DNA of 64,000 bases from an uncultured Chloroflexia bacterium (GTDB taxonomy: Bacteria; Chloroflexota; Chloroflexia; Thermomicrobiales; CFX8): positions 15,829 to 79,828 of the forward strand of contig CAVPYN010000011.1 in the NCBI GenBank assembly GCA_963709995.1, written 5' to 3'. This document shows positions 45,351 through 61,941 of this stretch, one piece after another. A program made the position numbers and the translations under genes. The notes below the pieces were generated by a model. The model was not told where the DNA came from and made no database searches. It saw only the letters and a list, made by a program, of their open reading frames with translations. The stretch's first letter is position 1, and every line of letters begins with the position of its first letter.

Positions 45351-45356
45351 CATCAG

Positions 45357-45578: not shown

Positions 45579-45625
45579 CCTGGCGGTCCTTCCCTCCATC
45601 CAGCTTGCTTCTGGATATTGTTCCG

Positions 45626-46685: not shown

Positions 46686-46788
46686 ATCCGTGCCCCTTGC
46701 CCTGTCCATCGCCTTGTTGGGCAAGATAGCACGGGAACGTCAGATACCTCTCCACCCACATGGCAACCAGCCAGATTGACGGGATTTG

Positions 46789-47512: not shown

Positions 47513-47842
47513 CTCACACCGCCTGCCTTTGCCAATCTGGGAGGTGTCCGATAGGGAACAGAATACACGATTAGAACAAATGTGCGCAATAGTCTCGGAC
47601 ATCGTGCAGATCAGCTCATCACTCTCGAGGCAAGTGAGGACACCCGCGAGCTTGCCACTTCATGTCACGGTAGCGCCATCGCCTCGCTTATTGATCCGGC
47701 TGAGGTGTTCGCTCAACTCTCTCCATAAGCCTGTTGCGGTCGTCGTCTCATTGCTCATCCCGTGGCTATCAACGCGAGATACACTCTTTGCAACCTGACC
47801 GCGTTGTGTTTTGGCACAGCCGGACGCCTCCGGTCGAGAAAC

Positions 47843-47876
47843 GAGAGAGCCGCGGCACCGGTGCCCCGGCTCTCTC
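47843..47876 (-). terminator. Long GC hairpin downstream of the ABC-2 transporter operon
   Basis: GAGAGAGCCG pairs with CGGCTCTCTC around the inner palindrome GGCACCGGTGCC. On the minus strand it is followed by GUUUCU. It lies 19 nt after the permease stop. Confidence 0.6.
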
Positions 47877-47894
47877 GCTGCCCTGGCTCGCCAC

Positions 47895-48753: not shown

Positions 48754-48871
48754 CTTGGTTCCTTCACTTTCTTTGCGGCACACCGTTGGGCCGCTTCTGA
48801 TTCATCGATGCGCGCCAGCGAAGCACGTTCCGACTTCGGACCGTTGAAGCGGTCCATTCCATGGCATTGCT

Positions 48872-49828
48872 CTACGCCACGCCCGCCATCTCTTTCTCCT
48901 CAACCAGTTCATGGCCGGTGAGGGCCATGTAGACATCCTCGAGGGTCGGATTGAACAGGCCATCACGACCCCGCACCTGCGCCTTCAACTCGTCGACCGT
49001 TCCAGTTGCAACGATCCGACCGTGGTCCATAATCGCGATCCGGTCGCAAAGTTGTTCGGCTTCATCCATATCGTGCGAGCAGATCAACACCGTGGCATCG
49101 TGTTGATCGCGCAGATCGAGCACAAAGCGCTGAACGTCCTTCTTCGAGCGCGGGTCGAGCCCGGTCGTCGGCTCATCGAGCAAAAGCAGAACCGGCGATG
49201 TCAAGAACGCCCGGGCAATCGCCACTTTCTGCTGCATACCTCTCGACATCGTCTCCAGCGGCACCGTAATGCGATCTTCTGGGATGCCGAGGTCGACGAG
49301 TATTCGCTTGATGTCTCGACGCAGTTCCGATCCGCCTCGTCCGTAGAGGCGCGACGAGTACAGCAGGTTCTCCATCGGCGAGAGTTTCTTGAAGAAGGAC
49401 GCTTCGACTGATACTCGATTGATCAGCCGCTTGACCTCTGCTTCGTCGTCTCGGACATCGTTTCCGAAGACAGTGATCCGTCCCTCGTCAGCTATCAGCA
49501 GGGTTGAGATCAACCGCACGAGCGTCGACTTGCCGCTACCATTTGCGCCGAGAATCCCAAAGATCTCATTCTCGTGGACTTCAAACGAGACATCATCGAG
49601 CGCCCGGACGATTTTGGCGGCCGGTTGCTCGCGTCGCCGTATAGTCCAGCGACTGCCCGACCGTTTACCGCCGAACGACTTCGAGACTTGCTCGAAGCTA
49701 ACCGCTACGTCTCTTTTCTGTTGTGACACCATCATTGACATCTCTTCTTCCGATTCGCGCGCGTCCCTGTGATTCATCGCATTCGGTCTCGTTACTTCGA
49801 CATTTCCGCCTCTGTTCATCAGTTGCAT
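48872..49828 (-). CDS. ABC transporter ATP-binding protein (ABC-2/DrrA-like exporter subunit)
   Basis: Walker A GANGSGKST, signature MSRGMQQK and Walker B LLLLDEPTTGLD. ATG 49828 has GGAAGGAG 9 nt upstream; alternative starts lie at 49855 and 49741. Confidence 0.85.
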   Translation of the reverse strand: MQLMNRGGNVEVTRPNAMNHRDARESEEEMSMMVSQQKRDVAVSFEQVSKSFGGKRSGSRWTIRRREQPAAKIVRALDDVSFEVHENEIFGILGANGSGKSTLVRLISTLLIADEGRITVFGNDVRDDEAEVKRLINRVSVEASFFKKLSPMENLLYSSRLYGRGGSELRRDIKRILVDLGIPEDRITVPLETMSRGMQQKVAIARAFLTSPVLLLLDEPTTGLDPRSKKDVQRFVLDLRDQHDATVLICSHDMDEAEQLCDRIAIMDHGRIVATGTVDELKAQVRGRDGLFNPTLEDVYMALTGHELVEEKEMAGVA

Positions 49829-49874
49829 TGACGTCCGCTCCTTCCCGAGATCCATCCGGATCGGTCATAGGCAA

Positions 49875-50159
49875 CAAAAAACCGCGGGGCCGTTTCTGGT
49901 CCGCCCGCGGTTGGAAGGTCTCGCTATGTGAAGAAATTCTCAGCAGCGTCTCCTCCAATGTCGCACGGGCGTCGGGCGCACTCCGCCCCCGAACGGGCGC
50001 AGCTTGCCGTCGACGATCACGCCAACGGCCGGCCGGGCCAGCATCGTGTTAGCGGTGATGGTGCTGTTCACTCTCTGGCCGTTCCATCCGTGCGTACAGA
50101 CGTAACCGAAATACTTCTAGTCCATGGGGCAGTGTATGCCTGAAACTCGGACAAGTCAA
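49875..50159 (-). promoter_or_regulatory. Promoter-like element, ~250-nt GC-rich structured leader and intrinsic terminator directly upstream of the ABC-2 operon (candidate riboswitch/attenuator or sRNA)
   Basis: On the minus strand, TTGACT (50159-50154), a 17-nt spacer and TACACT (50136-50131). The hairpin ACCGCGGG/CCCGCGGT (49911-49881) is followed by U6 (49880-49875). The ABC ATPase SD begins ~35 nt further on. Confidence 0.5.
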
Positions 50160-50217
50160 GCCATCGGAGGCGGAACTTCGATGAATTCGTTGCAGAGATG
50201 CGGCTCTGCGAGGAGAT

Positions 50218-50713
50218 CTAAGGCGCCTCCTCGTCCCGCCAGACTAACACTTCGCCGCCCTGACCAAGCAGCACCGTTCCCGGGAACATACGCAAGCGCC
50301 ACCGCTCCAGGCGTAGCACAGCGAACTGATCGGTCAGCGGCCCTTCGGACCACATCGGGACGATCGACGGATCATAGCCAACGGGTTCAGGAGCCGATTC
50401 CAACAACTCCCAGGTCCGCTCGCCCGTCTCATTGTCCGTATAGAGACTCGCCCGGCGCTCGGCTGTGCAGGTATCGTGATTCGGCGACCAGTAGTTGCAT
50501 GAGGCAAACGGACTATGCCGCAGATGCGCCCGCTTGAGGGCTGTTGGAACGCGTGCCGATCCACCCGACGAGCGCGTCGCCTTCCCACTCCCAGATTGGA
50601 TGGAGTATCCGACTACGCGGCCGATCAAAGGGATCGATGGATGCTACGGTGCACCAGACAATGCGATGCGCCATCTCGACAGATGCCGGGCCAACCTGCG
50701 CGAGTTCCTGCAT
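50218..50713 (-). CDS. Pyridoxamine 5'-phosphate oxidase (PPOX/FMN-binding split-barrel) family protein with one frame break near 50535
   Basis: The N-terminal part is in ORF 50513..50713 (HRIVWCTVASIDPFDRPRSRILHPIWEWEGDALVGWIGTRSNSP). The C-terminal part is in ORF 50218..50628 (KRAHLRHSPFASCNYW...DQFAVLRLERWRLRMFPG). Confidence 0.6.
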
Positions 50714-50743
50714 CCTCTACCTCCCTAAAATTCCACCTCTTGA

Positions 50744-50773
50744 TTGACAATCACCATATTCATCGATTATTCT
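50744..50773 (+). promoter_or_regulatory. Sigma-70-like promoter of the metG leader
   Basis: TTGACA (50744-50749), then a 17-18 nt spacer, then TTATTCT (50767-50773). Confidence 0.5.
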
Positions 50774-50814
50774 ACGAACTCGACACCGCTCATCTGCGGT
50801 GGGCACCAGACATC

Positions 50815-51101
50815 AATAGCGTTGACGAGGAACACCATTCGGGCCCGACGACCCAGAGAGTCACTGTTGCTGGATAGTGGCGCGTTCGTCGATCGGTGAT
50901 GACCTCCGAGCTGCCCGGGCGAACGCCTCCAGCAGTAGTCCGGGCCGGTCCGTGGGATACCGTTACCAATCCCTGGCTGGCAACGATCCAGTCGCGGAGG
51001 CCGGAGGTCGCAAGGCACCGGTGAAGCCGGGTGGTACCGCGAGCGCTTCATCCCGAGGCCCCTCGCCCCAGGCGGGTGCAGGGCCTTGGGAATTGTTGTT
51101 T
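50815..51101 (+). promoter_or_regulatory. T-box riboswitch leader with an AUG (Met) specifier
   Basis: Stem I elements are UGACGAGGAA (K-turn side), CCAGAGAG (50853-50860) and the distal loop GUUGCUGGAU. The specifier context is GGUG-AUG-A-CCUCCGAGC (AUG at 50899-50901). The T-box sequence GGGUGGUACCGCG is at 51029-51041. The terminator helix CCCGAGGCCC/GGGCCUUGGG (51052-51090) is followed by AAUUGUUGUUU. Confidence 0.85.
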
Positions 51102-51266
51102 AAGGGATCAGGGAACAGTAGCAAGGTTGTAGATATGGATAAGGACGTAGTTTGTAGTTTCTGATCCAGGAGGCTTACATGACGGCACCTGGTCTTCCTA
51201 CAAACTACCATCTACTCACTACAAACTTGCCCCGCCACTCATCCCTCGCTCGAAAGGAGCGTTACC

Positions 51267-52835
<1,569 letters not shown>

Positions 52836-52843: not shown

Positions 52844-52877
52844 GCCAGTTCCGGGGGAGCATCCTCCCGGAACTGGC
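52844..52877 (+). terminator. Hairpin terminator after metG
   Basis: GCCAGTTCCGGGGG agcatc CCTCCCGGAACTGGC forms a 14-bp stem (one G-U pair) 9 nt after the stop. Confidence 0.65.
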
Positions 52878-52995
52878 TAACTGGCATCACATATTCCTAG
52901 CGCTAGACTTGACCATCTCACCGGGATCGATCCAGCGGCAATTTGGCCCACCACCAGTTCAAGCGCTGGCATCAACGAATGCTCGGATCAAGGCG

Positions 52996-54480
52996 ATGAA
53001 CGACGAATCAGTACCCTACGATCAACAACAAGGTGCGCGCGAAATCCAGGAGCAACCCCACATCCTGCTGCGATTGGCGGAGAACTCCCTGACCGTCGCT
53101 GACAGCCTCAGAAACAACTACTTTCGCAACACCGCCACCTTCGTCTCCCACTTGCGCCGGGCGATCGAAGCCGCCGGGGCCGGTCAGCGGCCCGAATCGC
53201 CGCTGGGCACCTTTCCCGCCGATCGTCTGGGCTGGGACGACGTTCGCGATGAGGTTGTCACTTTCATCGACGGCGGCGTCGGTCAGGTGCAACTCTCAGG
53301 TCTGGTTCCGATCCTCCTGAGAGTCGGCTCCTACGCCGTGCGCACCGGAGAGCGCGACCTGGCGAAGCGCGAACAATTCGGCTACTACCCGATGATTCTC
53401 GGCGACATCGAGGGCGGCAGCCGGGAGCGACGCGACTTTGTCGACATCGTGCGGATCACCGCCGAATTGCTGGCCGCACTGTCGGCCCTGGACCGCACCC
53501 CGGACCTCCGGGTGCTGATGTTGCATGGCCCGCTCGTCTACCAGGTCGGGCTCTACGCCGGTCATGCGCCCTTCACCGAACGCGACATCGATTTGTTCCT
53601 TCATCACTACGCGAGTCAGCCGGATCTTGGCCCAAGGCTGAAAGAGGACTTCTACCGGGAGGCGGCGGTTGAGATCTATCCCAGGCTACTGGAGTATCCG
53701 GATGCCTGGAGCCAGAACCGCCTGGCTGAACCGCTCTCCTGGATCGCCTTTCTCTATCGCAGGCTGATCGCGAAGGCGCTGGAACGCGACCCTGTCCCGA
53801 TCATCGTTGGCGTCGTCGAGCGCGGGCGTTCGCGAGAGTTCATCGAGCAGATCATGCTGGAGCGGGTGTTTCGGGGGCTACGCGCAAACCGGAATACCGG
53901 CTACTTTAACGAGATGTTTGGCCGGACCGATCTCACGACGCCGAAGAAGCTGGTCGATCGCCTGGGCTACAGCGATGAACTCCTGCTCGGGATGCTGATG
54001 GATCCTGGCAGCTACTCGGAACCGTGGACGAGTGATAAGTATTCAGGGCTCCGCATAAGGAGCGTGCCGTCGCCGGATGAAGCGCGCAGCGATCAGGTCA
54101 ATTTCAAGCTGCTCGATCCCGCGATGCCGTTTGGCTTCCCGGAGGTTCGAGCGTCATACCTGCATGTCTCCCGGACAACCGAGCCGCTCAGGATCGAAGT
54201 CTTTCCGGCACTTGGCGCAGATCAGATCCACGATGCCGCGCAGCGCGTCCATCTTTACGCGCGCCTGCTCCCCGGCTATGGCTTCCCGGTCGGGCTCGAA
54301 ATCGCCGACAGATATGCGCGCGTGCCCGCCTGGCTCACCGACGCCTACGGCAAATTGATCCGCAAGCATATGAGCGCCAGCCTGATGAGCGGGGAAATTA
54401 GCGACGCCCAATTGCGCCAGATGCTCGTCCAGGCGATCTACATGACGCATCGCGACTGGCTTTTCCGACCAGACATTTAG
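52996..54480 (+). CDS. nurA: NurA-domain nuclease-like protein
   Basis: About 494 aa from MNDESVPY (the longest ORF starts at 52804, inside the metG terminator). NurA-like motifs appear in order: VTFIDGGVGQV, ITAELLAAL, VLMLHGPLVY, IIVGVVERGRSREF and GFPVGLEIADRYARV. It is coupled to the herA-like gene (9-nt gap). Confidence 0.65.
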   Translation: MNDESVPYDQQQGAREIQEQPHILLRLAENSLTVADSLRNNYFRNTATFVSHLRRAIEAAGAGQRPESPLGTFPADRLGWDDVRDEVVTFIDGGVGQVQLSGLVPILLRVGSYAVRTGERDLAKREQFGYYPMILGDIEGGSRERRDFVDIVRITAELLAALSALDRTPDLRVLMLHGPLVYQVGLYAGHAPFTERDIDLFLHHYASQPDLGPRLKEDFYREAAVEIYPRLLEYPDAWSQNRLAEPLSWIAFLYRRLIAKALERDPVPIIVGVVERGRSREFIEQIMLERVFRGLRANRNTGYFNEMFGRTDLTTPKKLVDRLGYSDELLLGMLMDPGSYSEPWTSDKYSGLRIRSVPSPDEARSDQVNFKLLDPAMPFGFPEVRASYLHVSRTTEPLRIEVFPALGADQIHDAAQRVHLYARLLPGYGFPVGLEIADRYARVPAWLTDAYGKLIRKHMSASLMSGEISDAQLRQMLVQAIYMTHRDWLFRPDI

Positions 54481-54489
54481 GAGAGACTT

Positions 54490-56250
54490 GTGCGGGACAG
54501 CAGAACAAGCAGCGACAACGGCGCCATCCAGTACGTCGGCGCCATCATCGGCGAAAGCACAAGCCGCGAATTCCGGCTCGCGATCGCCCACGAGGCCGTT
54601 CGAGAGCAGGACATCATCGCGGTCGACGTCGCCTTCCAATCGACCGAACAACGTCCCGACCCGGAGACGCTAAGAGTTTGGGCAAAGGTCCAGTGCATCG
54701 AGCGCCTGAATCCACTCTTCCCAACCGAAGCCGGGCATGAACTGGCCGGCAGCATGACCAATCCATTCGATACCGTCGTCTCGCTCAGCCGCGAGATGGT
54801 CACGACTGTCTGCCAGGTGCTTGGCTCGGAATCACTCACCGGCGGTCGGGCCCAGCGGCTCAGCAGCCTGCGCTACCCGCCCCAACCGGTGTCTCAGGCC
54901 TATCGCCCGCCAACCGCCGATATCAAGCGGGTTTTGATCGGCGAGCTGGCTGAGAATCAGGGACGCTCCCTTGACATCGCGACGCTCTCAACGCGGAATG
55001 ACATCGACGTTGCGGTTGATGGACACGCCATCGTCACCCGCCACCTGGCAATCCTGGCGATGACCGGCGCTGGCAAGAGCTGGGCGGCGCGTCGGATCAT
55101 CGAGGAACTCGCCGCCAAGAACTACCCGATCGTCATTTTCGACCCGCATGGCGACTATACGGGGCTAGCAGAAGTGCCAGGACTCCAGGGACGCGTACAG
55201 CTCATTCGTGCCCAATTGCCCATATTCGATGAGTCCGCGGAGAACGCACGCCTGATAGTTGAAGGCCTTGCAGCTGAGTCAATGTCGTCACCGCAGATAG
55301 ACGGATTCAATACGCTATTTGCTGCATCGTCCAAGATGCTCAACGAAAGATCCCGTCGGTCCACCACGCTTCAGGAACTTCTATTCGAAATCACTGGTAA
55401 CGACAATATCAGGAAATTCGGACTTAACCGAGACCTCTTTGCTCTCAGTTACATTGCAGAAGCGACAAACGCGGCAAGGCGAACCGGCGCGAATGCCTCG
55501 TGGACTACCCGTCTCGCTGAACTCGGATTCAATCGGATCTCGAGCATTCGGCCCCAACAAGCAGATAGCTTTCGAGTACTCTCCAGGCAACTCCGAGCGG
55601 CTGCATTCGAACTTCGTGGAATCGAACAGATCAATGAACACAGTTCACCGAAAGGAAGCAGGCCGTTACCGGCCAACCGGCTGGACCTTGTTCAGCACGG
55701 ACAGATCACGGTGATCGGCATGGCCGGGTACCCCGACTCCTTGAAGGCGACCCAATTCGCACTATTGGCAAATCAGATCTTTCGGGCACGCATCGACGGC
55801 AAAGTTCGGTACCCCTTCATGTTCGTGTTGGAGGAGGCACACAACTTCGTGCCCGCTCAGTCGGACGACATCGGTGTTCAGCGCTCAATCGCGGTCACCA
55901 AGCAGATCGCGCAAGAAGGTCGCAAGTTCAACATCGGACTTCTCCTCATCAGCCAGCGACCGTCCAGGCTCGACGAAACGACCCTGGCGATGTGCAACTC
56001 GTTCATCATCATGCGCATGATCAACCCAACCGACCAGCAGTTCGTCCGCAGGGTCATCGAGAGCCTGGGTGAGGACGAAGCTCGCCTGCTGCCGGATCTC
56101 GACGTTGGCGAAGCGATTCTCTCGGGCCAGATGGTCAACTTCCCGGTGCTTGTCAAGATGAAGGAACCTGCCTCCCGAGGAGAGCGCGAGGAGGAAGACG
56201 CGTTCGAGGTCCTGAGAAAGGCCCATACGCCTAGCATGCCGCCTCGTTAG
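54490..56250 (+). CDS. herA: HerA-like hexameric ATPase/translocase (DUF87/FtsK-HerA superfamily)
   Basis: 586 aa. AGGAGAG lies 4 nt before GTG 54490. There is an N-terminal HAS-barrel-like region, Walker A LAMTGAGKSW, IVIFDPHGDY, Walker B FMFVLEEAHNF and LLLISQRPS. Confidence 0.85.
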   Translation: MRDSRTSSDNGAIQYVGAIIGESTSREFRLAIAHEAVREQDIIAVDVAFQSTEQRPDPETLRVWAKVQCIERLNPLFPTEAGHELAGSMTNPFDTVVSLSREMVTTVCQVLGSESLTGGRAQRLSSLRYPPQPVSQAYRPPTADIKRVLIGELAENQGRSLDIATLSTRNDIDVAVDGHAIVTRHLAILAMTGAGKSWAARRIIEELAAKNYPIVIFDPHGDYTGLAEVPGLQGRVQLIRAQLPIFDESAENARLIVEGLAAESMSSPQIDGFNTLFAASSKMLNERSRRSTTLQELLFEITGNDNIRKFGLNRDLFALSYIAEATNAARRTGANASWTTRLAELGFNRISSIRPQQADSFRVLSRQLRAAAFELRGIEQINEHSSPKGSRPLPANRLDLVQHGQITVIGMAGYPDSLKATQFALLANQIFRARIDGKVRYPFMFVLEEAHNFVPAQSDDIGVQRSIAVTKQIAQEGRKFNIGLLLISQRPSRLDETTLAMCNSFIIMRMINPTDQQFVRRVIESLGEDEARLLPDLDVGEAILSGQMVNFPVLVKMKEPASRGEREEEDAFEVLRKAHTPSMPPR

Positions 56251-56743
56251 CAGGGAAGACGTTCAGGCAACTCTACGGCAAAATGTTCGCATACGCGCCA
56301 CACATCCATCCGGTCAATCTCATCCGGTTCACAACCGAGATGGGTCTGGATCTGGAGCTCGGGAGTCAGGCAACGAACCGGTCAACCGGCAATGCGCCCA
56401 CAGCCGTTGAGGGCCTTGACCTCACAGACAAAAAAGGGCCGCTCGGCAATTGCTGGTGGGCAAAACCGGAACCGTCGAAGCGCATCGGATGGAAATCGAT
56501 CCGGCGATCGCCCGGAACAAGCAAGACGAATCGGGTTGGCGTTTCATCCACATGAAGCCGGTAGCTCAGCGCTGTCAACGCGCTTCTCACCGCCTCCATC
56601 TGATCGAAGTCGATCTCCAGGTCAAGATCATCGTGCGGGCGCGTCTGCTCCTCGAGCAGCGCATCAACACCCCAACCGCCATCGACCGACACAAAGCATT
56701 GAGCGTCCTGCAGACACGCGAGAACGTCGGCGGCTTTCATCAC
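56247..56743 (-). pseudogene. ANT(2'')/Lnu-type nucleotidyltransferase, decayed (one frameshift in a T6 run plus one in-frame TGA)
   Basis: The N-terminus VSVDGGWGVDALLEEQTRPHDDLDLEID resembles ANT(2'')-Ia (WIGGGWAIDARLGRVTRKHDDIDL). After the homopolymer at 56430-56435 the family-like sequence continues in another frame: ...GCGRIAG*PVRCLTPELQ... The TGA at 56382-56384 falls where ANT(2'')-Ia has Arg (IAGRPVRC). Confidence 0.65.
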
Positions 56744-56766
56744 AATGACCAGGACATCTGAAGTGA

Positions 56767-58275
56767 CTAATCCGCCGCGACGACCTCGTAGCCTCTCAAC
56801 TTCTCAATCGCACGATCCAGGCGGGCAAGCGATCGTTCGGTGTTGACAACGCGGAGCGTCTCGAACAACCCGGGCGACGCGGTCCTGCCGGTAACCGCGA
56901 CCCGAATCGGCATGAAGAGCTGGCCCGCCTTGAGCTCAAGTTCGCCGGCAACACCGCGCAAACGCTCTTCGAGCATCGCCTCAACTTCCGTCCCGACCTC
57001 AGCGATCGCCGCCCGGGCTGCTTCCAGAGCACGCAGGGCATCGGCAGGCTCGGTCTTGCGCGGGACAAGCAATGCGGCGTCGTAATCCGGTGGTTCGACA
57101 ATGAAGTAGCTAATAAGGTCGGGCCCCTCGGTCAGGAGTTTCATCTTGTCCTTCACCAGTGCCACCGCTTCGACGATCAGTTCTCGCGTTCCCGGATCAC
57201 CGACTGCGTCATCGGTCAGACCCGCATCTGCAACCAGGGGCATAACCCGTTCGGCCAGATCCTCAACATCGAGAATATGGTTAATGTAATACTGGTTCAT
57301 CCAGTCGAGTTTCTCGAAGTTGAAGCGTGCCGGGCTCGGGCTGACCCGCTCCAGGCTGAATTTCTCGATCAATTCATCGTGGGAGAAGATCTCCTGGTGG
57401 TCATCATACGCCCAGCCGACGAGCGCAAGATAGTTGACGACAGCCTCCGGAAGGTAGCCCGCCTCGCGCAGCGCGAGCACACTAGCCGCTCCATCCCGCT
57501 TCGAAAGCTTGCCTTTCCCGTCAGGCTTGAGGATCACCGGCATGTGAACGAAAACCGGCCGCTCCCAGCCAAATGCGTCCCAGGTGATCAGATGCAGCGG
57601 CATCGACGGGATCCACTCCTCGCCACGTGTGACATGGCTGATTCCCATGTCATGGTCATCGACAACGACCGCAAGGTGGTACGTCGGGAATCCGTCCGAC
57701 TTGAGCAGCACCGCATCTTCCAGCTTGCTGTTCTCAAAGGTGATTGGTCCCCGCAACAAGTCATAGCCAGTCGTCGCCCCATCGAGCGGGACCTTTAGCC
57801 GAACTACGGGGATAGTGCCCTGGTCACAAAGAGTCTGCCGCTCCTCGTCAGTCAGATTCCGGCAGTGGCGGTCGTACCCGGGCGGGCGTCCAGCTTTGCG
57901 CTGCTCGTCCCGCAGTCCGGCGAGTCGTTCAGCCGAGCAGAAACATTCATAGGCGTAGCCGTCGGCGAGCAGCCTATCGACATGCTGCCGGTAGAGTTCC
58001 AGCCGCTGGCTCTGGAAATATGGACCGTGTGGACCATTGATGTCCGGTCCCTCGTCCCAATCAAGTCCAAGCCATCGAAGCGCATCGGTAATCGAGGTGA
58101 TACTCGATTCGTCATACCGCTTCTGGTCGGTGTCCTCCACCCGCAGGATGAACGCCCCGTCGTGCTGGCGCGCGAACAAGTACGTGAAAAGCGCGGTTCG
58201 AACGCCGCCCACATGGAGGTCTCCCGTTGGGCTGGGCGCGAATCGAACCCGCACTGGGGTCTCTGATGTTGTCAT
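56767..58275 (-). CDS. gltX: Glutamyl-tRNA synthetase
   Basis: 502 aa. Motifs are RFAPSPTGDLHVGGVRTALF (HIGH) and GKLSKRDG (KMSKS). Confidence 0.95.
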   Translation of the reverse strand: MTTSETPVRVRFAPSPTGDLHVGGVRTALFTYLFARQHDGAFILRVEDTDQKRYDESSITSITDALRWLGLDWDEGPDINGPHGPYFQSQRLELYRQHVDRLLADGYAYECFCSAERLAGLRDEQRKAGRPPGYDRHCRNLTDEERQTLCDQGTIPVVRLKVPLDGATTGYDLLRGPITFENSKLEDAVLLKSDGFPTYHLAVVVDDHDMGISHVTRGEEWIPSMPLHLITWDAFGWERPVFVHMPVILKPDGKGKLSKRDGAASVLALREAGYLPEAVVNYLALVGWAYDDHQEIFSHDELIEKFSLERVSPSPARFNFEKLDWMNQYYINHILDVEDLAERVMPLVADAGLTDDAVGDPGTRELIVEAVALVKDKMKLLTEGPDLISYFIVEPPDYDAALLVPRKTEPADALRALEAARAAIAEVGTEVEAMLEERLRGVAGELELKAGQLFMPIRVAVTGRTASPGLFETLRVVNTERSLARLDRAIEKLRGYEVVAAD

Positions 58276-58380
58276 GTTCCACTCCCATCTTCATGTATAA
58301 AGGTAACAGGGTGGAACACGGAATGCTCCAGTCTGGTAAGACGGACGGCCGGCGGCTATGTTCGATATCTCAAGAAGGAG

Positions 58381-59310
58381 ATGTTTGTGCTACTCGCGCT
58401 GAACAAGGACGATCGCTCGGCCATGTTTGTTGACGATGTGTCGGGCGAGATTGTCAAGACACTCAGTGTTGGCTTGAACCCGCATGAGGCGATTGTCACG
58501 CCGGATGGACGCGCCGCCTATGTCTCGAACGCCGGTGACAACACGATCTCGGTAATCGACCTCAATGCGCGAGAAGTCCTCACCGTGCTCAAGGACGATC
58601 ATTGGCGATTTCCTCACGGATTGGAGATCACCCAGGAAGGCAAGTATCTCTGGGTCGCCGCGACCCGCTCACACGGCGTCTGGATCTTCGAACGAGAACC
58701 GGACAATCTCACCTGGCATGAACTGGTCAAAGTCGTGCCAACGCAGCAGCGAATGAGTCACATGGTGCATCTCAGCCCAGACGGGCAACGTGCCTACGTC
58801 CCGAACATCGCTACCGGAGTGCTGACCGTGCTCGATACCGACAGGAAAGAAGTCATCAATCAGATCAGGGTTGGACCCGGCCCAGAGGGGGTCGCGATCC
58901 ATCCACTGGATGGCACGATCTATGTCGCGAATCAAGGCGATGACACACTATATGTCATCGATGACCGGGACTTCACCCGCCTCCACGAGATGAAAGTCGG
59001 CAGTACGCCCGTCCGCGCCAGTTTCACGCACGACGGCGAGCACCTCCTGGTTTCGAACCGGCTGTCCCACGATGTCTCGGTAATCGCCCACCGCTGGGAG
59101 CGAGCGACTGAGAGGCCGCAACCCTGGGAAATCAAACGGATTCCGGTTGGACGCTGGCCCGGGCAGATCGTCATGGCGCCGGACGGGAATCGAGCCTGGG
59201 TAACGAACAACAAGACGAACGACATCTCGGAGATCGACCTTGGCTCGCTTGAAGAGGTCCGCCGCATCACCGCTGGCGTTCATCCCGACGGGATGGTTTG
59301 GGTTCCCTGA
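58381..59310 (+). CDS. YVTN-type beta-propeller repeat protein
   Basis: Repeated ...PHEAIVTPDGRAAYVSNAGDNTISVID... units occur about six times. The start may be GTG 58387 (GGAG 6 nt upstream) rather than ATG 58381. Confidence 0.8.
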   Translation: MFVLLALNKDDRSAMFVDDVSGEIVKTLSVGLNPHEAIVTPDGRAAYVSNAGDNTISVIDLNAREVLTVLKDDHWRFPHGLEITQEGKYLWVAATRSHGVWIFEREPDNLTWHELVKVVPTQQRMSHMVHLSPDGQRAYVPNIATGVLTVLDTDRKEVINQIRVGPGPEGVAIHPLDGTIYVANQGDDTLYVIDDRDFTRLHEMKVGSTPVRASFTHDGEHLLVSNRLSHDVSVIAHRWERATERPQPWEIKRIPVGRWPGQIVMAPDGNRAWVTNNKTNDISEIDLGSLEEVRRITAGVHPDGMVWVP

Positions 59311-59502
59311 TCAGGATTTCGAGGTTCGTTCCAATCGTCACGATCGTGCAAGGCATCACCCCCTGATTGACCAAATGACAACACGTAGATGCTGCAATCT
59401 GGGGCCGGGTTGAACGGTTTCATCGAAATCGGCCACAATACGACAATACACGGCTGCCGGAGAACCAGTCAGTCAAGCCTGCCGTCAACCTGAGGGGGAA
59501 CC

Positions 59503-61941
59503 ATGGTTCAGCCACTAACGGTCGAAGATATTCGCGCGCCCGAAGCCGCGCAGCGCCCGAAACCGCCGCTCTCGCCAGATGAAATGGCGGTGCTTGACGA
59601 GGTCCAGCGCCGCGTTCTCTGGTTGAGCACCCTGATCGTCCACCACGCCAACAACGTCCGAGAGAAGCGGGATGGGTTGAAAGTCGGCGGGCATCAGGCA
59701 TCGAGCGCCTCGGTCGCCACGATCATGACCGCGCTCTATTTTCATGCCCTGCGTTCCGGTGATCGGGTTTCAGTCAAGCCCCACGCCTCGCCCGTCTTTC
59801 ACGCCGTCCAGTACCTGCTTGGGAATCTGCCGAAGGAGTTTCTGACCGAATTGCGGGCCTACGGAGGTCTGCAATCGTATCCGAGCCGAACGAAAGACCC
59901 GGATCCGGTTGACTTTTCCACCGGTTCGGTTGGCCTCGGCGCGGTCGCGCCCAACTTCGCCGCGCTCGGGCATCTCTATGCCGAGAAGCATTTTGGAGAA
60001 GTCACCTCCCGCCGCTTCATCTCGCTCGTCGGAGACGCGGAGCTGGACGAAGGCAACGTCTGGGAAGCGATGATCGAGGATGCGTTGACGCCGGTTTCCA
60101 ACGTGCTCTGGATCGTCGACCTCAATCGCCAGAGCCTGGACAGGGTCATTCCCGGAATCCGCGCCGCCGAACTGAAGCAGCTCTTCGCCAACAGCGGTTG
60201 GCGGGTGCTCGAAGCCAAGTACGGCCGCGACTTGCGAGCCACGTTCCAGCGACCCGGCGGGGACGCGCTGCGGCGGGTCATCGACGATATGGAAAACGAG
60301 GAGTATCAGGGGCTGATCCGGATGGAGGGGGCCGATCTCCGGGAACAGATAACCCACCGCGGCGGCTCACTCAATCAGGATGTCGCCCGTGTGCTGGCCG
60401 ACGTTCCTGACGAGATCCTGCCCAGCCTCATCTCCAACCTCGGCGGCCATGACCTCCAGGATCTGATCGACATGATCGATGAAGGCTTGCGCCCATCCGA
60501 CAAGCCTGCGATTCTCTTTGCCTATACGATCAAAGGTTGGCAAATGCCCTTCTACGGCGACGCGCTCAACCACTCGGCGCTCCTGAATAGCGCACAGGTC
60601 GAGCAGGTCCGCCAGGCTCTGGGCATCCCCGCGGGCAGCGATTGGGAGCGGTTTCCAGCCGAGTCGCCAGCCGGAAAGCTCTGTGAAACGGCACATGAAC
60701 GAATCTATGGCGATGAGACGAAGATCGAGCCCCAGGTGCGACCGGATCAAATCCCTGACCACCTTGGACACAACCGGTTGCCCTCGACGTCGACCCAGGA
60801 ATCGTTCGGACGGCTGCTCACTCAGCTCGCGGATGTCGAGCATGTTGGTGACCGGATCATAACCACATCGCCGGATGTCTCGATCTCAACCAATCTGGGC
60901 GGTTGGATCAACAAAGTCGGCGTGTTCCGCCCCGATCCTGCGACGATCTACTTCAACGCACCCCGCCAGCTCTTGCGCTGGGAGCCAGCGCCCGAGGGGC
61001 AGCACATCGAGCTCGGCATATCCGAGATGAACCTCTTCATGTTCCTCGGCTCGCTCGGGCTAAGCCAGGAACTTTCAGGGCAGTTGCTCTTCCCGATTGG
61101 CACCGTCTATGACCCGTTCATCTGTCGTGGGCTCGACGCTCTGATCTACGGATGCTACTCCGGTTCAAAGTTCATCTTCGCCGGCACACCTGCCGGCATT
61201 TCCCTGGCGCCCGAGGGAGGCGCGCACCAGTCCACGATTACGCCATCGATCGGGCACGAGCTTCCGAATCTGAGGTCGCATGAGCCCGCATTTGCTCAGG
61301 AACTCGAATGGCTGCTGCTCGACGCGCTGCGCCAGTGCGCCGACCGGAAGAACGGTGAGTCCAGCTATCTGCGCCTCTCGACCAAGCCGATCGACCAGCG
61401 ACTAATGCAACCAGCTCTCGACCGCCTGGATCAAGACGAACTGCGTCGCCAGGTTTTGAGCGGCGGCTACCGGCTGGTTGACGCGAGACACGACGCCGAA
61501 TCGCCAGTCGACCCGCGTGATACTGTCCAGATCGTCGCAAGCGGCGTCATGATCCCGGAGGCAGTCGAGGCAGCGCGCATGCTTCACGAAGAAGGCATCG
61601 CCGCAAACGTCATTAACCTGACCTCTCCCCAACTTGTCTACGACCAGTGGCGTGACTGGCAGCGTGCCAGAATGAGAGGTCAGAAGGCACTGGGAACTAG
61701 CAACAGAATCGAGGATTTGATTCCGGCGGGCGAACGATCGGCGCCAATCGTGACCGTGCAGGACGGCGCGTCACACTCTCTCGCCTGGTTGGGGAGCGTC
61801 TTCGGGACACGGCTGTTCTCGCTCGGGGTTGACGAGTTCGGCCAGTCCGGAGACATCCCATCGCTCTACCGGCACTTCGAGATGGACGCAGAGCACATCG
61901 CCTCGTCCGCCTTCGCGGCGCTTGACCTGCGGAATGCGTAG
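59503..61941 (+). CDS. AceE-like homodimeric 2-oxoacid dehydrogenase E1 / transketolase-like ThDP enzyme
   Basis: 812 aa. Motifs are GGHQASSAS, FSTGSVGLG, the ThDP motif GDAELDEGNVWEA...NVLWIVDLNRQSLD, and a C-terminal transketolase-like domain. Confidence 0.8.
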   Translation: MVQPLTVEDIRAPEAAQRPKPPLSPDEMAVLDEVQRRVLWLSTLIVHHANNVREKRDGLKVGGHQASSASVATIMTALYFHALRSGDRVSVKPHASPVFHAVQYLLGNLPKEFLTELRAYGGLQSYPSRTKDPDPVDFSTGSVGLGAVAPNFAALGHLYAEKHFGEVTSRRFISLVGDAELDEGNVWEAMIEDALTPVSNVLWIVDLNRQSLDRVIPGIRAAELKQLFANSGWRVLEAKYGRDLRATFQRPGGDALRRVIDDMENEEYQGLIRMEGADLREQITHRGGSLNQDVARVLADVPDEILPSLISNLGGHDLQDLIDMIDEGLRPSDKPAILFAYTIKGWQMPFYGDALNHSALLNSAQVEQVRQALGIPAGSDWERFPAESPAGKLCETAHERIYGDETKIEPQVRPDQIPDHLGHNRLPSTSTQESFGRLLTQLADVEHVGDRIITTSPDVSISTNLGGWINKVGVFRPDPATIYFNAPRQLLRWEPAPEGQHIELGISEMNLFMFLGSLGLSQELSGQLLFPIGTVYDPFICRGLDALIYGCYSGSKFIFAGTPAGISLAPEGGAHQSTITPSIGHELPNLRSHEPAFAQELEWLLLDALRQCADRKNGESSYLRLSTKPIDQRLMQPALDRLDQDELRRQVLSGGYRLVDARHDAESPVDPRDTVQIVASGVMIPEAVEAARMLHEEGIAANVINLTSPQLVYDQWRDWQRARMRGQKALGTSNRIEDLIPAGERSAPIVTVQDGASHSLAWLGSVFGTRLFSLGVDEFGQSGDIPSLYRHFEMDAEHIASSAFAALDLRNA

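What the first reader, a model, noticed from the sequence alone, without database searches (positions are those of the whole stretch)
52879..56250. Coupled nurA-herA nuclease/ATPase pair on a small accessory insert between two aminoacyl-tRNA synthetase genes
A ~494-aa NurA-domain protein and a 586-aa HerA-type ATPase are translationally coupled (9-nt gap, good SD). They sit between metG and gltX, next to a decayed ANT(2'')-like resistance-type gene, which is the context of an inserted module rather than a core repair locus. No mre11/rad50 (sbcCD) genes accompany them. Established knowledge: NurA-HerA performs DNA end resection in archaea and has been studied in Deinococcus. HerA paired with other effectors (Sir2-HerA, DUF4297-HerA) is a proven anti-phage defence architecture. 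Inference: this pair could be a HerA-scaffolded nuclease defence module rather than a repair system. Also seen: the position where I expect the second catalytic Asp of NurA (motif lDGxL) reads LMLHGPL (His codon 53524-53526). The first motif is FIDGG rather than IDGS.
Basis: partly seen in the sequence, partly recalled or inferred. Interest (0 to 1): 0.7.

Follow-up and report, generated by a model that had tools for sequence, protein, structure and literature searches.

The report
Orphan NurA–HerA nuclease–motor gene pair
This is a real, intact nuclease-plus-DNA-motor gene pair whose relatives in other bacteria almost always sit in an operon with enzymes that swap guanine for 7-deazaguanine, so it looks like the DNA-cutting half of an undescribed DNA-marking defence system, kept here on its own inside a stable housekeeping region.

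Summary
A 494-aa NurA-like gene (52996-54480) and a 586-aa HerA gene (54490-56250) are separated by 9 nt, with an AGGAG Shine-Dalgarno sequence. They lie between metG and gltX, next to a decayed ANT(2'')-like gene.

The His at the third catalytic position (H177) is not a lesion. It is present in 51 of 52 members of the superfamily, alongside invariant D92, E157 and D438.

The pair belongs to a rare, very conserved family: 54 loci in 185,579 species genomes, 57-75% identical to the window protein (57-66% outside its own clade) across MAGs labelled as more than 10 phyla. In 33 of 36 loci with enough flank, the pair is joined to a DpdA/ArcTGT-like transglycosylase. It usually also has a DpdC/YaaA-like DUF6884 gene, and often a preQ0 transporter (YhhQ) or QueC. 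I found no paper in the searchable library describing this link.

The window, L001 and L004 form the only clade lacking these partners. There the pair sits in a conserved syntenic block. It is under purifying selection (dN/dS 0.07-0.10) and is not a recent insert. The slot where the TGT gene normally sits holds variable genes.

Best reading: a HerA6-NurA2-type end-dependent DNA degradation or resection machine, here an orphan nuclease arm of a 7-deazaguanine modification-restriction-like system. I cannot separate defence from repair at this locus.

The parts
52996..54480 (+). NurA-like RNase-H-fold nuclease gene, 494 aa
   Evidence: ORF. Pfam NurA 38.3 bits. AF2 model with pLDDT 89.6, whose best PDB matches are Sso NurA 2ygk, T. 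kodakarensis NurA 9x1m_G and Pfu NurA 3taz. There are 744 or more homologues at 60-74% identity.
53269..53271 (+). Codon of D92 (TFIDGG), the first catalytic Asp
   Evidence: Invariant in 52 of 52. Aligns to Sso NurA D58.
53464..53466 (+). Codon of E157 (ITAELL), the putative catalytic Glu
   Evidence: Invariant in 52 of 52. It lies 20 residues before H177, matching the Pfu E105-D126 spacing of 21. HMMER pairs it with Sso E113, three residues before the catalytic E116, so the equivalence is approximate.
53524..53526 (+). Codon CAT of H177 (LMLHGPL); His at the position of the third catalytic Asp
   Evidence: Aligns to Sso NurA D133. His in 51 of 52 superfamily members and Gln in one.
54277..54309 (+). 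C-terminal motif Y428-G-F-P-V-G-L-E435-I-A-D438; probable counterpart of the canonical Tyr...His motif, supplying the fourth metal ligand
   Evidence: Y428, F430, P431, L434 and D438 are invariant, and position 435 is Asp in 47 of 52. The Y/F spacing matches Sso Y298/F300. The equivalence of D438 to Pfu H411 is inferred, not shown.
54479..54483 (+). Shine-Dalgarno AGGAG for herA, overlapping the nurA stop codon
   Evidence: Sequence read directly.
54490..56250 (+). HerA-type hexameric DNA translocase gene, 586 aa; Walker A at 55066-55080 and Walker B at 55828-55842
   Evidence: Pfam DUF87 E 1.7e-25. The best solved relative is T. kodakarensis HerA 9x1l (E 3.9e-36), followed by anti-phage HerAs and Sso HerA 4d2i. 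Motifs located.
52845..52876 (+). GC-rich hairpin just after the metG stop codon (probable metG terminator); the pair probably has its own promoter in the 160-bp spacer
   Evidence: Read. Hairpins occur at the same place in L001, but the spacer is otherwise not conserved. No sigma-70 consensus match was found.
56251..56766 (-). Variable slot between herA and gltX, here holding a decayed ANT(2'')-like gene (ORF 56366-56743). This is the position occupied by the TGT-like gene in canonical operons
   Evidence: Pfam PF10706 partial match. Frameshift plus in-frame stop. The same slot holds a luciferase-like gene in L001 and a DDE_3 transposase in L004. TGT follows HerA in 31 loci.
51267..52835 (+). 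metG, the conserved upstream neighbour of the pair in this clade (broken into several frames in this assembly)
   Evidence: tblastn of the intact L001 MetRS. Synteny in L001, L004 and L050.
56767..58275 (-). gltX, the conserved downstream anchor of the syntenic block
   Evidence: Pfam tRNA-synt_1c E 2e-98. 80% identical to the L001 gltX.

Best explanation
The two genes encode an intact HerA hexameric dsDNA translocase and a NurA-type RNase-H-fold nuclease with a variant metal-binding set (D92, E157, H177, D438).

By analogy with solved archaeal and Deinococcus complexes, I infer that they assemble as HerA6:NurA2. HerA would load on a DNA end and pump the duplex, using ATP, into the NurA dimer. 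The two NurA active sites would then cut the separated strands.

Shown here: the pair is a member of a narrow, highly conserved, horizontally spread bacterial family. In that family the pair is almost always the centre of this operon: [YhhQ preQ0 transporter or QueC] - DUF6884 (YaaA/DpdC-like) - NurA - HerA - TGT-like transglycosylase (ArcTGT/DpdA-like, catalytic Asp residues and Zn site intact).

Inferred: in that operon the TGT and DUF6884 proteins put a 7-deazaguanine mark into DNA, and HerA-NurA is the only nuclease present. It would therefore be the restriction or degradation arm, comparable in logic to TdpAB in the phosphorothioate Tdp system.

The window's lineage keeps only this nuclease-motor arm. 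It has a fixed chromosomal place downstream of metG, it is under purifying selection, and unrelated variable genes sit where the TGT gene normally lies. So here it most likely acts as a stand-alone, end-dependent degrader or resector of linear DNA, without modification-based discrimination encoded in cis.
For: Identity of the proteins:
- Pfam NurA and DUF87 matches.
- AF2 model with pLDDT 89.6, whose top Foldseek hits are all NurA, followed by TdpB.
- HerA's best solved relative is the T. kodakarensis HerA of a HerA-NurA complex.
- Walker A and B motifs are intact. The genes are translationally coupled.

Active site:
- D92, E157, E275, D327, E401 and D438 are invariant, and H177 is present in 51 of 52 across relatives down to about 22% identity.
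- H177 aligns to Sso D133.
- The canonical NurA set is D, E, D, H (PMC3300031). The same residue types are therefore present, in a different arrangement.

Family context:
- 54 loci in 185,579 species genomes, in MAGs labelled as more than 10 phyla. Identity to the window protein is 57-66%, two weaker hits at 50-52%, and 75% for L004 of the window's own clade.
- Neighbour clustering finds a TGT-like gene in 35 loci, DUF6884 in 32 and YhhQ in 10.
- A TGT-type gene is adjacent in 33 of 36 loci with enough flank.
- The TGT profile hits ArcTGT 1iq8 (7e-12) and DpdA 7ui4 (1.8e-5), with the catalytic Asp residues and the CxCxxC...H site conserved.
- DUF6884 matches YaaA. In L010, and by clustering L023, the gene at that position matches the PADLOC DpdC models.
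- QueC lies directly next to the operon in 4 loci.
- The same operon occurs at 47% identity (P0241), and a TGT gene is adjacent at 32% identity (P0250, next to a type III R-M system).
- Some family HerAs carry a fused HNH nuclease.

Window clade:
- It is monophyletic and lacks the TGT, DUF6884 and YhhQ genes.
- No homologue of these three families, or of QueC, occurs anywhere in the 64-kb window.
- Synteny is shared with L001 and L004.
- dN/dS against L001 is 0.066 for NurA, 0.10 for HerA and 0.094 for gltX.
Against: - No experiment exists for any member of this family.
- The complex stoichiometry and nuclease activity are inferred from distant homologues with 10-16% identity in structural alignments.
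- His in place of a metal-binding Asp could change or abolish catalysis. I could not inspect the model coordinates to confirm that D92, E157, H177 and D438 cluster.
- The TGT-like enzyme could act on tRNA or on a protein. Cap10 and QatC-type TGT/QueC homologues conjugate nucleobases to proteins (PMC13376578). In that case HerA-NurA would not be a 'restriction arm'.
- HerA-NurA might instead be the ATPase helper of the transglycosylase, as DpdB is for DpdA.
- Defence genes are only mildly represented near family loci (about 8 of 132 flanking ORFs) and are absent from this window.
- Conservation of about 60% identity across phyla is atypical of fast-evolving defence genes.
- dS is saturated (>3), so the dN/dS ratios are approximate.
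- TGT and DUF6884 genes could lie elsewhere in this genome.
Confidence: 0.55

Rival explanations
1. Ordinary DNA double-strand-break end-resection machinery, as in archaea and Deinococcus radiodurans. HerA-NurA would resect broken chromosomal ends for RecA-mediated repair. The link to TGT in other bacteria would be irrelevant to this locus.
For: - NurA fold and HerA's closest solved relative is a repair-type archaeal HerA.
- The best NCBIfam hit is 'DSB repair helicase HerA'.
- NCBI names family members 'DNA double-strand break repair nuclease NurA'.
- The pair has a stable syntenic position among housekeeping genes, under purifying selection as strong as on gltX.
- The window holds no defence genes.
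- A bacterial NurA-HerA resection complex is documented (PMC9960219).
Against: - No Mre11/Rad50/SbcCD linkage.
- The family occurs in only about 54 of 185,579 species genomes, and its NurA tree does not follow taxonomy.
- Sequence searches do not connect it to Deinococcus or archaeal NurA: phmmer against PDB gave 0 hits.
- The NCBIfam score of 147 is far below the cut-off of 970.
- Every other clade couples the pair to 7-deazaguanine genes.
- No LexA-type box or conserved regulatory motif lies upstream.
Confidence: 0.25
2. A complete defence system working in trans. The DpdA-like TGT and DpdC-like DUF6884 genes would be encoded elsewhere in this genome, and the pair would still be the restriction arm of a 7-deazaguanine modification-restriction system.
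For: - The proteins of the solo clade are hardly changed. Only 8 (NurA) and 11 (HerA) conservative clade-specific substitutions occur at columns that are at least 95% conserved.
- Modification genes of other systems (dndA, sspA) are sometimes unlinked (PMC12914056).
- Purifying selection is retained.
Against: - No TGT-like, DUF6884, YhhQ or QueC homologue occurs in the 64-kb window, nor in the 21-kb loci of L001 and L004.
- In all other clades the genes are tightly collinear, which suggests that co-expression matters.
Confidence: 0.12
3. A HerA-scaffolded abortive-infection system of the Sir2-HerA or DUF4297-HerA type. Phage infection would trigger assembly of a supramolecular HerA-effector complex whose nuclease destroys cellular and phage DNA.
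For: - HerA matches generic PADLOC HerA models (best E 4e-55) and NCBIfam HerA_antiphage_2 (141 bits).
- Solved Sir2-HerA and DUF4297-HerA HerAs are among the PDB hits.
- The architecture is a two-gene HerA plus effector pair.
Against: - The effector is neither Sir2 nor DUF4297 but HerA's canonical partner NurA. NurA has no PADLOC match.
- The scores are far below the family cut-offs of 850 and 800.
- The closest HerA is the archaeal repair type.
- The window is not a defence island.
- The family's conserved partners are base-exchange enzymes, which points to self/non-self marking and not to abortive infection.
Confidence: 0.05
4. A functionless remnant of the four-gene operon, in the course of decay.
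For: The partner genes are missing. The neighbouring ANT-like gene is decayed, and several upstream genes are frameshifted in this assembly.
Against: - Both ORFs are intact over 3.2 kb, and all family-invariant residues are kept.
- dN/dS is 0.07-0.10 against a relative at saturated dS.
- The same solo pair is also complete in L001. In L004 NurA is complete but HerA is called as two ORFs (209 and 436 aa), in a long-read-type assembly.
Confidence: 0.03

Closest known systems
Archaeal and Deinococcus HerA-NurA DNA end-resection complexes (Sso NurA 2YGK, Pfu NurA 3TAI/3TAZ, T. kodakarensis HerA-NurA 9X1L-9X1P, D. radiodurans NurA-HerA)
   Same: - Adjacent, co-oriented herA and nurA genes.
- NurA RNase-H/PIWI-like fold (Foldseek E 1.5e-9 to 2ygk).
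- HerA with DUF87, Walker A and Walker B. The T. kodakarensis HerA is the best solved relative (E 3.9e-36).
- The first Asp and the Glu of the catalytic set are conserved.
   Different: - The third catalytic Asp is His throughout the family, and an invariant Asp (D438) lies where the canonical His motif is expected.
- The protein is about 150 residues longer than Sso NurA, and TM-scores are modest (0.42/0.61).
- No sequence-level hit to any solved NurA.
- No Mre11/Rad50 linkage.
- The family is rare, horizontally spread, and normally embedded in an operon with 7-deazaguanine genes.
TdpABC phosphorothioate-based defence of thermophiles (TdpA HerA-like ATPase, TdpB NurA-like nuclease, TdpC modification enzyme; PDB 8WET, 8WFD)
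   Same: A HerA-like ATPase plus a NurA-like nuclease is encoded with a DNA-modification enzyme. This is the logic I infer for the canonical operon of this family. TdpB and TdpA are detectable structural or sequence relatives (8wfd_G E 9.5e-5; 8wet_A E 4.9e-6). The role of TdpAB as the restriction arm comes from my own recollection; the library only confirms that tdpABC exists and that TdpC makes the modification.
   Different: The similarity is much weaker than to archaeal HerA and NurA. The associated chemistry here is base exchange (TGT, DUF6884, preQ0 supply), not phosphorothioation. The window locus has no modification gene at all.
Dpd 7-deazaguanine DNA modification-restriction system (DpdA TGT-like, DpdB ParB-like ATPase, DpdC DUF328/YaaA, DpdD-K)
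   Same: In the family, though not in the window:
- A TGT-superfamily enzyme with intact catalytic Asp residues and Zn site, which hits DpdA 7UI4.
- A YaaA-superfamily partner, some copies matching the PADLOC DpdC models.
- preQ0 supply genes (QueC or YhhQ) in the cluster.
- A sporadic, HGT-like distribution.
   Different: - No DpdB and no DpdD-K were found. HerA-NurA takes the place of the ATPase and nuclease components.
- The TGT-like protein is closer to archaeosine TGT (E 7e-12) than to DpdA (E 1.8e-5).
- Scores are far below the NCBIfam DpdA cut-off (15.5 against 200).
- DNA modification has not been shown.
Sir2-HerA and DUF4297-HerA anti-phage systems
   Same: Two-gene HerA plus effector architecture. 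The HerA proteins are homologous (8xau E 3.6e-30, 8j4u E 8e-23).
   Different: The effector family differs (NurA). The models score below their cut-offs. The family's conserved partners point to DNA marking, not NAD+ depletion or abortive infection.
BREX-related capture (BRC) systems with HerA/FtsK, GNAT and TGT (PMC12839542)
   Same: A published case in which a HerA/FtsK translocase and a TGT homologue co-occur in a predicted defence system.
   Different: BRC systems are defined by PglZ, BrxC-like DUF6079, STAND NTPase and DUF4007. They have no NurA and no DpdC-like protein, and their HerA is DndH-like. None of those components is in this family's operon.

Membership tests
NurA nuclease (Pfam PF09376; archaeal/Deinococcus NurA) | Match to the NurA profile above the curated cut-off | tested here: met
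   38.3 bits against a cut-off of 21, E 1.3e-9, covering profile positions 2-254 of 254.
NurA nuclease (Pfam PF09376; archaeal/Deinococcus NurA) | RNase-H/PIWI-like NurA fold | tested here: met
   AF2 model with pLDDT 89.6 and pTM 0.88. The top ten Foldseek PDB hits are all NurA chains (2ygk, 9x1l/m/n, 3tai/tal/taz), E 1.5e-9 to 3e-5.
NurA nuclease (Pfam PF09376; archaeal/Deinococcus NurA) | Catalytic Asp-Glu-Asp set (Sso D58/E116/D133; Pfu D51/E105/D126) plus a C-terminal His (Pfu H411) | tested here: not met
   D92 and E157 are conserved. The third position is His (H177) in 51 of 52 relatives. The C-terminal motif carries an invariant Asp (D438) instead of His. The residue types are retained, but their positions differ.
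NurA nuclease (Pfam PF09376; archaeal/Deinococcus NurA) | Adjacent, co-transcribed herA | tested here: met
   9-nt gap with a Shine-Dalgarno sequence. The two genes are adjacent in 47 of the related loci examined; other loci are truncated or lack a detectable call for one of them.
NurA nuclease (Pfam PF09376; archaeal/Deinococcus NurA) | Operon or neighbourhood link with mre11-rad50 (archaeal repair loci) | tested here: not met
   None among the families listed for the rest of the window (top 25 of 48 shown), among the genes Pfam-annotated on the syntenic contigs, or among the recurrent neighbour clusters of 57 loci.
NurA nuclease (Pfam PF09376; archaeal/Deinococcus NurA) | Toroidal dimer forming a 6:2 complex with HerA; Mn2+-dependent nuclease activity | not testable with these tools
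   No multimer prediction or biochemistry is available here.
HerA (FtsK-HerA superfamily translocase) | DUF87/HerA central ATPase domain with Walker A and Walker B | tested here: met
   PF01935 E 1.7e-25. GAGKS at residue 193 and LEEAH at residue 447. Ten solved HerA-type chains are hit.
HerA (FtsK-HerA superfamily translocase) | Equivalog-level membership of a named HerA subfamily (DSB-repair HerA NF040819; anti-phage HerA NF042944 and NF042943) | tested here: not met
   147, 141 and 109 bits against cut-offs of 970, 850 and 800. It is a separate HerA clade.
HerA-effector anti-phage systems (Sir2-HerA, DUF4297-HerA) | The effector next to HerA is Sir2 or DUF4297 | tested here: not met
   The effector is NurA-like. 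It has no PADLOC match.
HerA-effector anti-phage systems (Sir2-HerA, DUF4297-HerA) | Location in defence islands | tested here: inconclusive
   Window: no PADLOC defence hit among the 39 other ORFs. Family: about 8 of 132 flanking ORFs hit defence models (pAgo, MADS, SIR2-Aga, CapP). One distant relative lies next to a type III R-M system.
HerA-effector anti-phage systems (Sir2-HerA, DUF4297-HerA) | Protection against phage | not testable with these tools
   Needs an experiment.
Dpd-type 7-deazaguanine DNA modification system | DpdA (TGT-like DNA-guanine transglycosylase) in the cluster | tested here: not met
   Window: no TGT-like gene. In the family, a TGT-type gene is adjacent in 33 of 36 loci, but it scores below the DpdA model cut-off and is closer to ArcTGT.
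Dpd-type 7-deazaguanine DNA modification system | DpdC (DUF328/YaaA family) in the cluster | tested here: not met
   Window: absent. Family: a DUF6884/YaaA-like gene lies upstream of NurA in 32 of 42 loci. The L010 protein at that position matches the PADLOC DpdC models (E 4e-12), and L023 carries a clustered homologue.
Dpd-type 7-deazaguanine DNA modification system | DpdB ParB-like ATPase and the DpdD-K restriction genes | tested here: inconclusive
   No recurrent neighbour cluster other than the TGT, DUF6884, YhhQ and QueC genes. No ParB-like family appears among the 25 most frequent flanking Pfam families. I did not search for them specifically.
Dpd-type 7-deazaguanine DNA modification system | dPreQ0 or dADG present in genomic DNA | not testable with these tools
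   Needs LC-MS/MS of DNA.
TdpABC | TdpA and TdpB orthology, and a TdpC modification gene | tested here: not met
   Only remote similarity (8wet_A E 4.9e-6; 8wfd_G E 9.5e-5). The recurrent neighbours found are TGT-like, DUF6884, YhhQ and QueC genes. TdpC itself was not searched for.

The most novel reading that the evidence does not exclude
The His-variant NurA-HerA family is the nuclease and translocase arm of a previously undescribed, compact 7-deazaguanine DNA modification-restriction system: preQ0 supply by YhhQ or QueC, a DpdA/ArcTGT-like base exchanger, a DpdC/YaaA-like protein, and HerA-NurA in place of DpdB and DpdD-K. The window's Chloroflexota lineage would then show that this restriction arm can be kept for a long time as a stand-alone chromosomal gene pair, that is, a restriction nuclease domesticated for end-dependent DNA degradation or repair.
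Probability: 0.35. Interest if true: 0.8.

Novelty: new variant of a known kind. Interest (0 to 1): 0.6.

Why it matters
HerA-NurA is textbook archaeal repair machinery, and HerA is now known as a scaffold for anti-phage effectors. This locus belongs to a third, distinct bacterial family that ties the classical HerA-NurA pair to 7-deazaguanine (queuosine-precursor) chemistry.

If the operon marks DNA with preQ0-type bases and HerA-NurA destroys unmarked DNA, it would be a much simpler relative of the 11-gene Dpd system. It would also be a second example, after Tdp, of a HerA/NurA-type machine reading a DNA modification.

The family offers a natural Asp-to-His change in an RNase-H-fold active site, which can be tested directly. 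Its conservation of about 60% identity across phyla is unusually strong for a mobile system.

The window's solo version is a natural 'module deletion'. It shows that the motor-nuclease has a selectable function of its own. One cultured carrier of the full operon, Chloracidobacterium thermophilum, makes the question experimentally accessible.

Tried and rejected
- phmmer of NurA against all PDB sequences gave no hit even at E 10. The profile A2 gave only a sub-threshold hit to 2ygk, which I used for residue correspondence only.
- I first considered H177 an inactivating lesion of this copy. I rejected that because it is present in 51 of 52 relatives.
- I looked for partner genes elsewhere in the window: TGT-like, DUF6884 and YhhQ and QueC. 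Only noise-level hits came back. The best, E 7e-4 at 1929-2093, lies in no ORF.
- I looked for a preQ1 riboswitch or any other Rfam RNA in eight canonical loci and in the window. Nothing was found except tRNAs.
- I looked for vehicles of horizontal transfer. There are no relatives in IMG/VR viral contigs, GenBank phages or PLSDB plasmids.
- I looked for a promoter, a LexA-type box or a conserved motif in the metG-nurA spacer. There is no sigma-70 match, and the spacer is not conserved among the three syntenic genomes apart from a hairpin after metG.
- I tested whether the N-terminal extensions of 600-650-aa distant relatives are fused DUF6884 domains. No Pfam domain was detected.
- Clade-specific substitutions in the solo clade are few and conservative, so they are uninformative.
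- Literature searches for NurA together with DpdA, preQ0, deazaguanine or transglycosylase, and for DUF6884, found no description of this operon. The library is incomplete, and one cited paper on HerA/FtsK 'capture systems' is not held.
- The first neighbour scan failed on a residue limit and was repeated with fewer sequences.

Full report
**1. The observation**

The window holds two co-oriented ORFs.
- The NurA-like gene runs from ATG 52996 to 54480 (494 aa).
- HerA runs from GTG 54490 to 56250 (586 aa).
- The 494-aa start is supported by the aligned N-termini of homologues. It is also supported by an independent gene call on a short-read contig that carries identical proteins.
- The two genes are 9 nt apart. 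An AGGAG Shine-Dalgarno sequence overlaps the nurA stop codon, 6 nt before the herA GTG.
- Pfam assigns NurA (38.3 bits, cut-off 21) and the HerA central domain DUF87 (E 1.7e-25). HerA has intact Walker A (GAGKS) and Walker B (LEEAH) motifs.

Flanking genes:
- Upstream is metG. Downstream, on the other strand, is gltX.
- Between herA and gltX lies an ANT(2'')-like gene that covers only two thirds of its Pfam profile. Its remainder continues in another frame with an in-frame stop, so it is decayed.
- No Mre11/Rad50/SbcCD gene turned up. The Pfam scan of the rest of the window listed the top 25 of 48 families, and these are glycogen/trehalose and central-metabolism genes. That same set of 39 ORFs has no PADLOC defence hit.

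**2. The protein is a NurA, with a family-wide His at the third catalytic position**

- Sequence search against all PDB chains finds nothing.
- An AlphaFold2 model built on 52 relatives is confident (pLDDT 89.6, pTM 0.88).
- Its ten best Foldseek matches in the PDB are all NurA: S. solfataricus 2YGK (E 1.5e-9), the T. kodakarensis HerA-NurA complex, and P. furiosus 3TAI/3TAL/3TAZ. TdpB of the TdpAB complex follows.
- A profile alignment to 2YGK puts D92 (TFIDGG) on the AIDGGS Asp, and H177 (LMLHGPL) on the Asp of ILMDGSL. These are the catalytic D58 and D133 of Sso NurA (PMC3326311).
FIDGG, however, is the normal form of the first motif.

In an alignment reaching relatives of only about 22% identity:
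- D92, E157, E275, D327, E401, D438 and R486 are invariant.
- Position 177 is His in 51 of 52 and Gln in one.
- Canonical NurA uses Asp, Glu, Asp and a C-terminal His (Pfu D51, E105, D126, H411). In T. maritima NurA that His is replaced by Glu (PMC3300031).
- This family has His at the third position and an invariant Asp (D438) in the conserved C-terminal motif Y-G-F-P-x-G-L-[DE]-I-x-D. The Tyr/Phe spacing of that motif matches Sso Y298/F300.
- I therefore read the site as a rearranged but complete metal-binding set. The D438 equivalence is an inference, because the model coordinates could not be inspected.

**3. A rare, very conserved, horizontally spread family**

- The word-indexed search returned 744 NurA and 2,181 HerA homologues. 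The listed top NurA hits are mostly 60-66% identical, with a few at 69-74%. The few that carry source names are from Chloroflexota, Acidobacteriota and Thermomicrobiales (NurA), and Thermomicrobiales, Chloroflexota, Nitrospiria and a cyanobacterium (HerA).
- In the exhaustive search of 1.84 billion representatives, the whole tight family collapses into one 50% cluster. Only 223 proteins reach E 0.001.
- A scan of one genome per species (185,579 species) found 54 loci. They come from MAGs labelled Chloroflexota, Acidobacteriota, Actinobacteria, Clostridia/Heliomicrobium, Phycisphaeraceae, Proteobacteria, Armatimonadota, Trueperaceae, Adhaeribacter, Rubrobacter, Obscuribacterales and Nitrospiria.
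- Their identity to the window protein is 57-66%, apart from two weaker hits at 50-52% and L004 at 75%. This is a lower bound, because the scan used exact peptide motifs.
- A neighbour-joining tree of NurA does not follow taxonomy.
- No relative occurs in viral contigs, phage genomes or plasmids.

**4. The family's normal context is a 7-deazaguanine operon**

I called ORFs in all fetched loci and clustered them. Besides NurA and HerA, three clusters recur.

A TGT-like protein of about 345 aa lies directly after HerA (35 loci).
- It matches Pfam TGT and NCBIfam archaeosine TGT and DpdA, all below cut-off.
- Its profile hits archaeosine tRNA-guanine transglycosylase 1IQ8 (E 7e-12) and the DNA-guanine transglycosylase DpdA 7UI4 (E 1.8e-5).
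- Both catalytic Asp motifs and the CxCxxC...H zinc site are conserved.

A protein of about 245 aa lies directly before NurA (32 loci).
- It is DUF6884, distantly related to YaaA/DUF328, and carries the CxxxK and LSA motifs that Pfam describes.
- DpdC of the Dpd system is a DUF328/YaaA protein (PMC5699537, PMC12839542).
- In L010 the gene at this position matches the PADLOC DpdC models (E 4e-12). L023 carries a clustered homologue.

A Vut_1/YhhQ protein lies upstream (10 loci).
- It is an NCBIfam equivalog of the queuosine-precursor transporter (E 1e-42).

Among 132 further flanking ORFs, the most frequent family is QueC. QueC lies immediately next to the operon in L039, L043, L045 and L046.

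Counting only loci with enough flank:
- 31 of 36 have the collinear TGT gene.
- L005 has an ArcTGT-like gene (TGT plus DUF5591) upstream, and L020 has one convergent downstream.
- That makes 33 of 36.

The association is old.
- A 47%-identical relative has the same four-gene operon.
- A 32%-identical relative has a convergent TGT gene and sits next to a type III R-M system.
- A 35%-identical relative is solo.

Other points:
- A few family HerAs carry a fused HNH nuclease (the long HerAs in L018 and L045).
- Defence genes near family loci are present but not abundant (pAgo, MADS, SIR2-Aga, CapP).
- No paper in the library links NurA with DpdA, preQ0 or TGT. The nearest published case is the BREX-related capture system, which combines a DndH-like HerA with TGT and GNAT but has no NurA or DpdC-like protein.

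**5. The window's clade is the exception**

- The window, L001 (74% identical NurA) and L004 (75%) form one clade in the tree.
- They are the only three loci with complete flanks that lack the TGT, DUF6884 and YhhQ genes.
- No homologue of those families or of QueC exists anywhere in the 64-kb window.
- The three genomes share this gene order: M42 peptidase - ABC transporter - metG - NurA - HerA - [variable] - gltX - YNCE propeller - AceE. L050 also has metG-NurA.
- Against L001, dN/dS is 0.066 for NurA, 0.10 for HerA and 0.094 for gltX. dS is saturated, so the ratios are approximate.
- Clade-specific changes at otherwise conserved positions are few and conservative.

So the pair is not a recent insert. 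It is an old, selected resident of a housekeeping block. What varies is the slot between herA and gltX: the decayed ANT-like gene here, a luciferase-like gene in L001, and a DDE_3 transposase in L004. That slot is exactly where the TGT gene lies in canonical operons.

**6. Mechanism**

Shown:
- Both proteins are intact and have the folds and motifs of a HerA translocase and a NurA nuclease.
- They are translationally coupled.
- The family is tied to genes for supply (YhhQ, QueC), insertion (TGT-like) and possibly further processing or recognition (DpdC/YaaA-like) of 7-deazaguanine.

Inferred:
- HerA6-NurA2 assembly and ATP-driven feeding of DNA ends into two NurA active sites, as in the solved archaeal and Deinococcus complexes (PMC12977600, PMC9960219).
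- In the canonical operon, the TGT and DUF6884 proteins mark DNA, and HerA-NurA, the only nuclease present, degrades unmarked DNA. The TdpABC system is a precedent for a HerA/NurA-like pair combined with a DNA-modification gene. Its restriction role is my recollection; its existence and structures are confirmed.
- That YhhQ occurs at some loci and QueC at others argues that the substrate is the free preQ0-type base, as for DpdA.

In the window lineage the marking module is absent in cis. The selected function must therefore be that of the motor-nuclease alone: end-dependent degradation of linear foreign DNA, end resection in repair, or both. These tools cannot separate the two.

**7. Rivals**

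- Plain DSB repair remains possible for this locus (0.25). For it: stable housekeeping synteny, strong constraint, and a closest solved HerA of the repair type. Against it: the rarity and horizontal spread of the family, the missing Mre11/Rad50, and the operon partners elsewhere.
- A complete system working in trans cannot be excluded without the whole genome (0.12).
- A Sir2-HerA-like abortive system is unlikely (0.05). The effector differs, and the models score below their cut-offs.
- A decaying remnant is contradicted by intact ORFs and low dN/dS (0.03).
- For the family module there is one further reading. TGT- and QueC-like proteins in type IV CBASS and Qat systems conjugate nucleobases to proteins instead of modifying DNA (PMC13376578).

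**8. Verdict**

- The finding is real and correctly identified as NurA-HerA.
- The 'insert' reading is wrong.
- The locus is a new variant of a known kind: a His-variant NurA-HerA pair from a family that appears to form an undescribed 7-deazaguanine-linked system, present here as an orphan nuclease arm.
- Interest is 0.6. The family-level association is the notable result. The window itself carries only the reduced form.

Noticed in passing
window 45075-52835: Several genes upstream of the pair are broken by frameshifts relative to intact orthologues in L001. metG is split over at least 4 frame changes (51267-52835). The M42 peptidase (45632-46712) and an ABC-2 permease (47898-48753) have one each, and a further ORF near 50194-50695 has one. 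Every gene from 52996 to 64000 is intact. A short-read contig from the same population has an unbroken 218-aa MetRS C-terminus. These are therefore probably assembly indels and not pseudogenes. The breakpoints are not at long homopolymers.
   Followed up: partly
window 56251-56766 (minus strand): The ANT(2'')-like nucleotidyltransferase gene is truly decayed. The N-terminal 100 residues match PF10706, and the C-terminal part continues in another frame and contains an in-frame stop. The independent short-read assembly also failed to yield a full-length call.
   Followed up: yes
L001:13282-14932, L004:13293-16056, window 56251-56766: The interval between herA and gltX is a variable slot in three otherwise syntenic genomes. 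It holds a luciferase-like monooxygenase in L001, a DDE_3 (IS630-type) transposase plus two small ORFs in L004, and the ANT-like pseudogene in the window. It coincides with the position of the TGT gene in canonical operons.
   Followed up: partly
L018:11450-13735 and L045:11479-13734; proteins P0144, P0150, P0220, P0228: Some HerA proteins of this family are 750-765 aa long. P0144 and P0228 carry HNH endonuclease domains in their precomputed Pfam annotation (PF01844; P0228 also PF13391), giving a second nuclease fused to the motor.
   Followed up: no
L006:7542-14623, L017:14786 onward, L039:2-9033: A block of six or seven genes recurs next to the operon in three unrelated loci. It includes a sigma-70 region-4 protein, an IrrE/ImmA-type M78 peptidase and several proteins of 350-640 aa without Pfam domains. 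It may be another unnamed system, or an extension of this one.
   Followed up: no
L063:930-5480: A distant relative of the pair (32% identity), with a convergent TGT gene, lies directly beside a type III restriction-modification system (Mod plus Res). This is a defence-island-like context.
   Followed up: no
window 52845-52876: An almost perfect 32-nt GC-rich hairpin (11-bp perfect stem; CCAGTTCCGGGGGAGCATCCTCCCGGAACTGG) lies 10 nt after the metG stop codon. A comparable hairpin lies at the same place in L001. It has no T-tract, so the terminator scan did not call it.
   Followed up: partly
family-wide: NurA is 57-66% and HerA 54-62% identical between MAGs labelled as different phyla. That is higher than I would expect for typical housekeeping proteins at that distance, and unusual for a horizontally moving system. 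No plasmid, phage or integrase association was found that would explain the spread.
   Followed up: partly
proteins P0276, P0280, P0288, P0291, P0303, P0305 and others: A set of distant NurA-like relatives is 600-660 aa long, with an N-terminal extension of 160-230 residues that matches no Pfam family.
   Followed up: partly
window 1-45000: The rest of the window is a metabolic region: maltokinase/trehalose synthase-like, GlgB-like alpha-amylases, 4-alpha-glucanotransferase, DUF3536, pyruvate carboxylase domains, arginase, creatininase, M3 peptidase, MscL and cation efflux. No Rfam RNA was detected in the whole window.
   Followed up: partly
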